Part shown: piece by piece, positions 47,760-48,398 of the stretch
Layout of the letters: each line of letters begins with the position of its first letter
Numbering within the stretch: the first letter of the stretch is position 1
Assembly: GCF_053078305.1 (NCBI RefSeq)
Contig: NZ_CP166879.1
Strand: one strand, 5' to 3'
DNA length: 64,000 nucleotides
Program-made: the position numbers and the translations under genes
Notes under the pieces: generated by a model
Told to the model about the DNA's origin: nothing
Database searches by the model: none
Seen by the model: only the letters and a program-made list of their open reading frames with translations

Positions 47760-48197
47760 TTAAACCATCACCAGCGATAACTCTTTGCCAAGCGCCTTTG
47801 CCGCGAGCTGGACGGCGTCGATTTTTGTCGCATGATGCAAGTTAAATAGGCGAGTAATCTCCTGTTTAGGTTTGCCAATTCGCCTGGCTAACTCTTGCTG
47901 AGTGATTTCTGACTGTAAAAAAGCATTTAACAGCAATACCTTAGAGGCGACGCTCAAAGGTACTTCAATAAAGTGATCATGACTATTTAATGGCGAAGGT
48001 AACGGGATAAGCTCGTTATCTTCAAAATAAAAATCAAATGCGGTCAGTAAAGCATCTTTTGCCGCTTCCATCGCTTCAGCGACAGTTTCGCCCTGGGTCA
48101 ACGCTTCAGGGATATCCACAAAAGAAACCATATAACCGCCTTCCGGCGCGGGTGTAAGAGTGACGGGATAACGCATAATTTCGACTGTCTCTCGCAT
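47760..48197 (-). CDS. hicB: HicB antitoxin (start may be the internal Met at 48176)
   Basis: Contains MRYPVTLTPAPEGGYMVSFVDIPEALTQGETVAEAMEAAKDALL...; C-terminal HTH. Confidence 0.85.
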   Translation of the reverse strand: MRETVEIMRYPVTLTPAPEGGYMVSFVDIPEALTQGETVAEAMEAAKDALLTAFDFYFEDNELIPLPSPLNSHDHFIEVPLSVASKVLLLNAFLQSEITQQELARRIGKPKQEITRLFNLHHATKIDAVQLAAKALGKELSLVMV

Positions 48198-48221
48198 GTC
48201 ATTAACCTTTTTAATTGGCGA

Positions 48222-48398
48222 TTAACTCAAACCGAGTTGTTTCAGGATTGCTTTACGCAATGGTTCTTTAATCTCATCGCAGGGGTGACGCGGCATGACA
48301 CTGCGCATCCCATGAAACCTGAGTTTCAAATGGTTGCTGCCATTCGCTACATCGACGCCCTGAGATTCGAGCCAACGTCTGAACTCGCTTTGTTTCAC
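48222..48398 (-). CDS. hicA: HicA toxin (mRNA interferase), 58 aa, GTG start
   Basis: Manual translation of the reverse strand gives VKQSEFRRWLESQGVDVANGSNHLKLRFHGMRSVMPRHPCDEIKEPLRKAILKQLGLS; absent from the ORF track (GTG start, under 60 aa). Confidence 0.8.
   Translation of the reverse strand: MKQSEFRRWLESQGVDVANGSNHLKLRFHGMRSVMPRHPCDEIKEPLRKAILKQLGLS

What the first reader, a model, noticed from the sequence alone, without database searches (positions are those of the whole stretch)
47760..48398. hicAB toxin–antitoxin pair; hicA uses a GTG start and is missing from the ORF track
Manual reverse-strand translation of 48222–48398 gives a 58-aa HicA beginning at a GTG codon, just upstream of hicB. 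This gene would be missed by ATG-only or length-filtered gene calling.
Basis: partly seen in the sequence, partly recalled or inferred. Interest (0 to 1): 0.3.

Follow-up and report, generated by a model that had tools for sequence, protein, structure and literature searches.

The report
Known E. coli hicAB toxin–antitoxin operon

Summary
On the minus strand, window 48398..48222 is a 58-codon GTG-initiated ORF. It is followed 45 nt later by hicB (48176..47760, 138 aa).

- **Identity.** HicA passes Pfam HicA_toxin. It is 57/58 identical to the crystallised K-12 HicA (PDB 6HPB chain A). RefSeq annotates it with exactly these coordinates and the same GTG start, both in a genome 100% identical across the locus and in K-12 (b4532).
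- **Start codon.** GGGAGG lies 4 nt upstream of the GTG. An in-frame TGA lies 9 codons upstream. The next in-frame starts come after the catalytic His23. The MKQSEFRRWLE N-terminus and the GTG itself are conserved in homologues from five other genera.
- **Correction.** hicB is the 138-aa form, not the longest 145-aa ORF.
- **Regulation.** A perfect palindrome GTAAACA-N4-TGTTTAC at 48431-48448 sits just upstream of a TATACT box. This fits the published HicB-repressed P2 promoter.
- **Strain-specific feature.** The only one is a rare HicA R31M substitution. The exact 61-mer carrying it occurs in 15 of 3800 matching genomes.

A naive ORF list with a 60-aa minimum does omit hicA, but standard pipelines do not.

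Verdict: already known; low interest.

The parts
48222..48398 (-). hicA CDS: GTG start, 58 codons plus TAA. Encodes the HicA mRNA-interferase toxin, with catalytic His23 present.
   Evidence: ORF. Pfam HicA_toxin. 57/58 identical to PDB 6hpb_A. RefSeq CDS at identical coordinates. N-terminus and H23 invariant in 23 sequences.
48306..48308 (-). Codon 31 of hicA: ATG (Met) here versus AGG (Arg) in K-12. This is the only amino-acid difference from the crystallised protein, and the allele is rare.
   Evidence: DNA alignment. Protein alignment. The exact 61-mer is present in 15 of 3800 matching genomes. In the 22 other sequences of the alignment, position 31 is K or R in 20 and N in 2, never M.
48403..48408 (-). 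Shine-Dalgarno GGGAGG, 4 nt upstream of the hicA GTG.
   Evidence: Sequence. A GGAGG or AGGAG box at a similar short distance occurs in homologues from Salmonella, Serratia, Yersinia, Cellvibrio and Aliamphritea.
48417..48422 (-). TATACT, a -10-like hexamer 19-24 nt before the GTG. It is the candidate -10 of the HicB-repressed promoter P2. Its transcript would start at or next to the SD, so it would yield HicB but not HicA.
   Evidence: Sequence. [quoted passage not shown] The consensus promoter scan did not flag it.
48431..48448 (-). Perfect inverted repeat GTAAACA-N4-TGTTTAC, the probable HicB operator (hicO).
   Evidence: Repeat I3. The same half-sites are conserved upstream of hicA homologues in other genera while the flanking sequence diverges. 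The operator role is inferred from the literature. Binding was not tested.
48449..48619 (-). Rest of the yncJ-hicA intergenic region. It should hold the Sxy/CRP-dependent promoter P1 (CRP-S site), which I could not place.
   Evidence: Literature. A TGCGA-N6-TCGCA scan found fewer sites in the window than in shuffles and no convincing site here.
48177..48221 (-). 45-nt hicA-hicB spacer. It has no hairpin, unlike the homologous loci in other genera.
   Evidence: Sequences compared.
47760..48176 (-). hicB CDS: ATG start, 138 codons plus TAA. Encodes the HicB antitoxin and repressor, with an N-terminal HicB-like toxin-binding domain and a C-terminal HTH_3 domain.
   Evidence: Pfam PF15919 and PF01381. 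Full-length match to PDB 6hpb_B (E 8.8e-87). RefSeq coordinates. Protein identical to K-12 HicB on comparing.

Best explanation
This is the chromosomal type II toxin-antitoxin operon hicAB of Escherichia coli, lying between yncJ and ydcR, in an intact state. hicA encodes a 58-aa ribosome-independent endoribonuclease with catalytic His23, translated from a GUG codon preceded by a strong Shine-Dalgarno box. hicB encodes a folded 138-aa antitoxin. Its N-terminal domain covers the HicA active site, and its C-terminal helix-turn-helix dimer binds a palindromic operator just upstream of hicA.

According to work on K-12, an upstream Sxy/CRP-dependent promoter (P1) makes a transcript that yields both proteins. 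A second promoter (P2), next to the hicA start, is repressed by HicB and derepressed by excess HicA. P2 makes a shortened transcript from which only HicB is translated, which restores antitoxin excess.

Shown here: gene identities, gene boundaries, the start codon, the SD box, the palindrome, and conservation. Taken from the literature and not re-tested here: RNase activity, neutralisation, and the two-promoter logic. Inferred: that the palindrome at 48431-48448 is the operator, and that TATACT at 48417-48422 is the P2 -10 element.
For: - **Source and annotation.** The window is E. coli. Window 47600-48700 is 100% identical to NZ_CP062811.1, and 5416 of 5426 genomes match at least part of that stretch. 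RefSeq annotates hicA and hicB at exactly these coordinates, as does K-12 with b4532 and b1438. The K-12 hicA also begins with GTG.
- **Families.** HicA_toxin, HicB_lk_antitox and HTH_3 all score above Pfam's cutoffs.
- **Solved structures.** HicA is 57/58 identical to 6hpb_A. HicB gives a full-length match to 6hpb_B.
- **Start codon.** An in-frame TGA lies 9 codons upstream with no other start between it and the GTG. The next in-frame candidates are TTG24, ATG31 and ATG35, all after His23. The N-terminus MKQSEFRRWLE is almost invariant across 23 sequences that reach Cellvibrio, Paraburkholderia and Aliamphritea. The start is GTG in all five other genera examined, while upstream sequence and third codon positions vary.
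- **Within E. coli.** The 61-mer spanning the TATACT box, the SD, the GTG and the first 10 codons is identical in 3838 of 4253 genomes.
- **Operator.** A perfect palindrome lies at 48431-48448, with conserved half-sites in the homologues.
- **Mechanism from the literature.** PMC11594946, PMC8138530 and PMC6957337.
Against: Nothing contradicts the identification. Five caveats remain.
- The primary papers (Turnbull & Gerdes 2017; Jorgensen 2009; Manav 2019) are not in the held library. The regulatory model is therefore cited second-hand from reviews and one related primary paper.
- I could not place the CRP-S site or P1.
- The simple sigma-70 scan did not flag a promoter upstream of hicA.
- This allele carries R31M at a position that is otherwise K, R or N. 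Full toxin activity in this strain is assumed, not shown.
- NCBIfam and PADLOC returned no model hits for either protein.
Confidence: 0.96

Rival explanations
1. The operon is hicAB, but the toxin in this strain is attenuated or inactive. The rare R31M substitution would remove a basic side chain needed for RNA binding or folding, making this a first step towards the decay seen in many other E. coli.
For: In the 22 other sequences aligned, position 31 is K or R in 20 and N in 2, never M. The exact 61-mer carrying M31 occurs in only 15 of 3800 matching genomes. The locus is clearly decaying in the species. About 1100 genomes keep only a 3' hicB remnant. Many others carry a 22-bp frameshifting deletion in hicA between two TGCG repeats (6 of 30 evenly spaced rows).
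Against: Position 31 is not invariant, and Asn is tolerated in Salmonella and Rahnella homologues. The only residue known to be catalytic, His23, is intact. The reading frame, the SD and hicB are intact, and hicB is identical to K-12. No structural or mutational data on R31 were available to me.
Confidence: 0.15
2. The 58-codon ORF is a chance ORF, or it is translated from a different start codon, so the GTG assignment is an annotation convention rather than biology.
For: Small ORFs of this size are abundant by chance in the neighbourhood. An out-of-frame ATG immediately followed by TGA (48400-48395) overlaps the GTG and shares the same SD. The Pfam score is only 2.4 bits above the cutoff.
Against: The protein is 57/58 identical to a crystallised, functionally characterised protein of the same 58 residues. 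192 homologues score at E <= 0.001, and the close ones are nearly all 57-58 aa with 98-100% coverage. The N-terminus is conserved from residue 1. No alternative in-frame start keeps His23. The ATG-TGA overlap is absent from all five other genera examined, so it is incidental.
Confidence: 0.01
3. The module's main biological role is anti-phage defence (abortive infection) rather than stress or competence-linked regulation.
For: A 2024 analysis of the genetic contexts of HicA domains proposes an anti-phage role for the family (PMC10865869; abstract only). The presence/absence polymorphism of the locus within E. coli resembles that of accessory defence genes.
Against: Neither protein matches any PADLOC defence model. 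The locus sits at a fixed chromosomal site between housekeeping-type genes, not in a recognisable defence island. No phage phenotype for this locus was found in what I read.
Confidence: 0.1

Closest known systems
E. coli K-12 HicA/HicB (b4532/b1438; PDB 6HPB, 6HPC)
   Same: Same chromosomal site (yncJ-hicA-hicB-ydcR), same coordinates, GTG start and SD. HicB is identical, and HicA is 57/58 identical. The aligned 866 bp (window 47740-48605, covering the promoter region and both genes) are about 99% identical, with 8 substitutions.
   Different: HicA R31M (AGG to ATG). There are also two synonymous changes in hicB and five substitutions in the upstream region, one of them in the 4-nt spacer of the palindrome (CAAA versus CTAA).
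HicAB loci of other Enterobacterales and gammaproteobacteria (Salmonella, Serratia fonticola, Yersinia intermedia, Cellvibrio mixtus, Aliamphritea)
   Same: A 58-aa HicA 69-84% identical, a GTG start, a GGAGG-type SD close to the start, GTAAnCA/TGTTTAC operator-like half-sites, and toxin-first gene order with a 135-136-aa HicB.
   Different: Four of them (Salmonella, Serratia, Yersinia, Cellvibrio) have a GC-rich hairpin in the hicA-hicB spacer that E. coli lacks; the Aliamphritea spacer was not examined. The Salmonella and Serratia loci also have a consensus TTGACA -35 upstream of the operator where E. coli has none. They lie in different genomic contexts, for example next to antitermination or ORF6N genes, which suggests prophages.
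Haemophilus influenzae toxTA (RelE/ParE-type)
   Same: Analogous regulation: toxin-first order, a CRP-S/Sxy promoter, and an internal antitoxin-repressed promoter that yields antitoxin only (PMC6957337).
   Different: No sequence homology to HicA or HicB. It resembles this locus in how it works but belongs to a different family.
Yersinia pestis HicA3-HicB3 and Burkholderia pseudomallei HicAB
   Same: HicA-family RNase with an essential His. HicB covers the active site and represses the promoter through operators that overlap the -10 (PMC11594946).
   Different: Their HicB uses a ribbon-helix-helix DNA-binding domain and forms tetramers. The HicB here has an HTH_3 (XRE-type) domain and forms an A2B2 heterotetramer.

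Membership tests
HicA toxin family (Pfam PF07927) | Sequence matches the HicA_toxin profile above the curated threshold over the whole domain | tested here: met
   29.4 bits against a cutoff of 27. Residues 5-57 align to profile positions 3-58 of 58.
HicA toxin family (Pfam PF07927) | Conserved catalytic histidine (His23 in E. coli numbering) | tested here: met
   H23 is present and invariant in the 23-sequence alignment. It is described as the sole known catalytic residue in PMC8138530.
HicA toxin family (Pfam PF07927) | Small dsRBD-like fold | tested here: met
   57/58 identical over the full length to the solved chain 6hpb_A. The fold itself was not re-modelled here.
HicA toxin family (Pfam PF07927) | Ribosome-independent mRNA cleavage and growth arrest on expression | not testable with these tools
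   Reported for the K-12 protein (PMC11594946). Not shown for the M31 allele.
HicB antitoxin family | N-terminal HicB-like (partial RNase H fold) toxin-binding domain plus a C-terminal DNA-binding domain | tested here: met
   PF15919 at 32.8 bits and PF01381 HTH_3 at 31.4 bits, both above their cutoffs. Full-length match to 6hpb_B.
Type II toxin-antitoxin operon, hicAB type | Adjacent co-oriented toxin and antitoxin genes with the toxin first | tested here: met
   hicA 48398..48222, then hicB 48176..47760 on the same strand, with a 45-nt gap.
Type II toxin-antitoxin operon, hicAB type | Antitoxin-bound palindromic operator at the promoter (autoregulation) | tested here: inconclusive
   A perfect 7-N4-7 palindrome lies at 48431-48448, and its half-sites are conserved in other genera. 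HicB binding to it could not be tested, and the primary paper that defines hicO was not available.
Type II toxin-antitoxin operon, hicAB type | Sxy/CRP-S-dependent upstream promoter P1 (specific to E. coli hicAB) | tested here: inconclusive
   The CRP-S consensus scan gave no convincing site in 48399-48619 and fewer hits than shuffles window-wide. E. coli CRP-S sites are asymmetric and weakly conserved (PMC6728893). The upstream region differs from K-12, where P1 was shown, by only 5 substitutions.

The most novel reading that the evidence does not exclude
The GUG start of hicA may be a selected translational throttle on toxin synthesis. It is retained in all six genera sampled, although upstream sequence and third codon positions diverge and a single G-to-A change would create AUG. 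It would act together with the close, strong SD and the two-promoter circuit to keep HicA below HicB. Separately, the rare R31M allele in this strain may be a naturally attenuated toxin. Neither idea is excluded by my evidence, and neither is demonstrated.
Probability: 0.3. Interest if true: 0.2.

Novelty: already known. Interest (0 to 1): 0.07.

Why it matters
It matters little beyond annotation hygiene. The case shows that ORF listing restricted to ATG starts or to 60 aa and above drops real small toxin genes. Here the only ORF of at least 60 aa on the spot is a spurious antisense one. The out-of-series K-12 locus tag b4532, lying between b1436 and b1438, suggests that the original annotation missed the gene too; this is my inference from the tag order.

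For this strain the useful facts are two. hicAB is intact, whereas roughly a fifth of complete E. coli genomes lack hicA and others carry a frameshifted copy. The strain also carries an uncommon HicA R31M allele.

Tried and rejected
1. **CRP-S site.** I scanned for TGCGA-N6-TCGCA with up to 3 mismatches to place the P1 activator site. The window gave 253 hits against 282 expected from shuffles, and none was convincing upstream of hicA. I abandoned this, and P1 remains unplaced.
2. **Consensus promoter and terminator scan of 47600-48900.** It found 3 promoter-like and 1 terminator-like sites, no more than shuffles give, and none upstream of hicA at P2.
3. **RNA structure around the hicA start (48440..48370).** The z-score was 0.57, so there is no evidence of a regulatory fold.
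4. **Start-stop mini-ORF idea.** An out-of-frame ATG-TGA overlaps the GTG at 48400-48395. I rejected it as functional because the ATG is absent in all five other genera examined.
5. **The 145-aa HicB from ATG 48197.** Rejected in favour of the 138-aa form.
6. **NCBIfam and PADLOC scans.** No hits for either protein.
7. **Primary papers.** Jorgensen 2009, Turnbull & Gerdes 2017, Sinha 2009 and Manav 2019 are not in the library. The mechanism is therefore cited from reviews and from PMC6957337.
8. **An unresolved count.** The mid-hicA 61-mer matched 3800 genomes, whereas the start-region 61-mer matched 4253. This is probably due to a diverged allele class, since 295 genomes are 90-95% identical over hicA. 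I did not resolve it.

Full report
**What is there**

Reading the minus strand of window 47500-48700 and listing ORFs of at least 30 aa shows two adjacent ORFs.

- The first is a 58-codon ORF at 48398..48222 that starts at GTG. It encodes MKQSEFRRWLESQGVDVANGSNHLKLRFHGMRSVMPRHPCDEIKEPLRKAILKQLGLS.
- The second follows 45 nt later and ends at 47760.

ORFs of this size are common by chance; one search lists about forty in 3 kb. The case therefore rests on homology.

**Identity**

- Pfam assigns the 58-aa product to HicA_toxin (29.4 bits, cutoff 27). It assigns the downstream product to HicB_lk_antitox plus HTH_3, both above their cutoffs.
- The window is Escherichia coli. Window 47600-48700 is 100% identical to NZ_CP062811.1, and 5416 of 5426 complete genomes match at least part of that stretch.
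- In that genome RefSeq annotates hicA at positions equivalent to window 48398..48222 and hicB at 48176..47760.
- K-12 MG1655 has the same pair, b4532 and b1438, between yncJ and ydcR. Its hicA also begins with GTG.
- HicA is 57/58 identical to chain A of the crystal structure 6HPB, which has the same 58 residues.
- HicB matches chain B over all 138 residues. It is identical to K-12 HicB on comparing.

**The start codon**

- GGGAGG lies at 48408-48403, 4 nt before the GTG.
- An in-frame TGA lies nine codons upstream, with no other candidate start between it and the GTG.
- The next in-frame candidates are TTG24, ATG31 and ATG35. All lie after the catalytic His23.
- A protein search returned 192 homologues. 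The close ones are nearly all 57-58 aa and cover 98-100% of the query.
- In an alignment of 23 sequences that reaches Cellvibrio, Paraburkholderia and Aliamphritea, the N-terminus MKQSEFRRWLE and H23 are invariant or nearly so.
- I fetched the DNA of five of these homologues: Salmonella, Serratia, Yersinia, Cellvibrio and Aliamphritea. All five start at GTG with a GGAGG or AGGAG box a few bases upstream. Sequence further upstream and third codon positions differ between them.
- Within E. coli, the 61-mer covering the -10-like box, the SD, the GTG and ten codons is identical in 3838 of the 4253 genomes that have it.

The GTG start is therefore as secure as sequence evidence can make it.

**hicB boundary**

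The longest ORF starts at ATG 48197 and gives 145 aa. RefSeq, K-12 and the crystallised protein all use ATG 48176, which gives 138 aa beginning MRYPV. In four other genera the homologous hicB begins ATG-CGA/AAA-TAT-CC, and what precedes it is unrelated. I take the 138-aa form as correct.

**Regulatory anatomy**

A perfect inverted repeat, GTAAACA-N4-TGTTTAC, lies at 48431-48448. Its half-sites recur upstream of the homologues in other genera. Eight bases downstream of it is TATACT (48422-48417), 8 nt before the SD.

The literature on K-12 describes two promoters.

- P1 depends on CRP and Sxy (a CRP-S site) and gives both proteins.
[quoted passage not shown] Its shortened transcript yields HicB only (PMC6957337; PMC8138530; PMC11594946).

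The palindrome and TATACT fit the operator and the P2 -10 element, but that assignment is my inference. The primary paper was not available. I could not place P1 or the CRP-S site, and E. coli CRP-S sites are asymmetric and weakly conserved (PMC6728893). The upstream region differs from K-12 by five substitutions, one of them in the palindrome's spacer. No RNA structure stands out around the start, and the generic promoter and terminator scan is at background level.

**Mechanism**

This comes from the literature and was not re-tested here.

- HicA is a ribosome-independent mRNA and tmRNA endoribonuclease that is bacteriostatic when expressed.
- HicB is a folded antitoxin that covers His23.
- The HTH domains of a HicB dimer bind the operator.

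**What is particular to this strain**

- The one amino-acid difference from K-12 is HicA R31M, caused by AGG to ATG at window 48307.
- In the other 22 aligned sequences, position 31 is K or R in 20 and N in 2.
- The exact 61-mer carrying M31 occurs in 15 of 3800 matching genomes. Other SNPs inside the 61-mer would also lower that count.
- Whether the substitution weakens the toxin is unknown. I give this about 15%.

**Population context**

- hicA is present in 4253 of 5426 complete genomes.
- About 1100 genomes retain only the 3' 239 bp of hicB, which is annotated as a pseudogene.
- A further class has a 22-bp deletion in hicA between two TGCG repeats, annotated as 'frameshifted'. This class made up 6 of 30 evenly spaced rows, so any frequency estimate is rough.

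The window's copy is intact.

**The claim that gene callers miss it**

At its default 60-aa minimum, the ORF tool lists only an antisense 65-aa TTG ORF on this spot. NCBI's pipeline calls hicA routinely. The out-of-series K-12 tag b4532, lying between b1436 and b1438, suggests the gene was added after the original annotation; this is my inference.

**Comparison and verdict**

This is a member of the HicA and HicB families. More specifically, it is the same locus as K-12 hicAB. Every sequence-level defining feature that I could test was met. Operator binding and the CRP-S promoter remain inconclusive, and RNase activity cannot be tested with these tools.

Novelty: already known. Interest: low.

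The only mildly new observations are the retention of the GTG start across genera and the rare R31M allele.

Noticed in passing
window 17600-30800: Two tandem orphan type VI secretion vgrG islands lie on the minus strand. The first holds VgrG (28013-29977), DUF2169 (27056-27997), a PAAR-like toxin (25930-27063), DUF4279 (25454-25933) and a truncated DDE transposase (24406-24951). The second holds VgrG (22040-23737), a 692-aa ORF with a sub-threshold Peptidase_M23 hit (19371-21449), a 167-aa ORF with no Pfam hit (18863-19366) and an H-repeat-type transposase (17625-18449). The vgrG parts and the transposase parts are about 95% identical between the two copies. The genome that is identical at hicAB has a single vgrG plus an RHS core pseudogene here instead.
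   Followed up: partly
window 13329-14682: A 1.35-kb stretch is absent from the otherwise collinear genome NZ_CP062811.1, between narI and yddE. It carries a 403-aa minus-strand ORF (13392-14603, TTG start as listed) with a DUF4303 domain.
   Followed up: partly
L003 1203-1439; L004 401-555; window 48260-48281: hicAB is decaying in the species. About 1100 complete E. coli genomes keep only the 3' 239 bp of hicB. Another class has a 22-bp deletion in hicA flanked by TGCG direct repeats, which frameshifts the gene while hicB stays intact, leaving an orphan antitoxin/repressor.
   Followed up: partly
L005 578-627, L006 578-626, L007 578-626, L008 578-631: hicAB homologues in Salmonella, Serratia, Yersinia and Cellvibrio have a GC-rich hairpin in the hicA-hicB spacer, for example AAACCAGCCCTCCGGGGCTGGTT. 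E. coli lacks it. This may relate to the intra-operon terminator reported for plasmid HicAB (PMC11878559, abstract only). The Salmonella and Serratia loci also have a consensus TTGACA -35 where E. coli has none.
   Followed up: no
window 48237-48434 (+): A 65-aa TTG-initiated ORF antisense to hicA is the only ORF of at least 60 aa at this spot. It is almost certainly spurious, but it is the one a length-filtered ORF track would show in place of hicA.
   Followed up: partly
window ~40400-40600 and ~1-950 (by synteny with NZ_CP062811.1): The syntenic genome annotates other small toxin or antitoxin genes in this window's region. These are the orphan toxin ortT and the 31-aa yncL, at L010 8122-8585. 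A HigA-family antitoxin, yddM, is annotated about 5 kb left of where the window aligns. I did not check these in the window itself.
   Followed up: no
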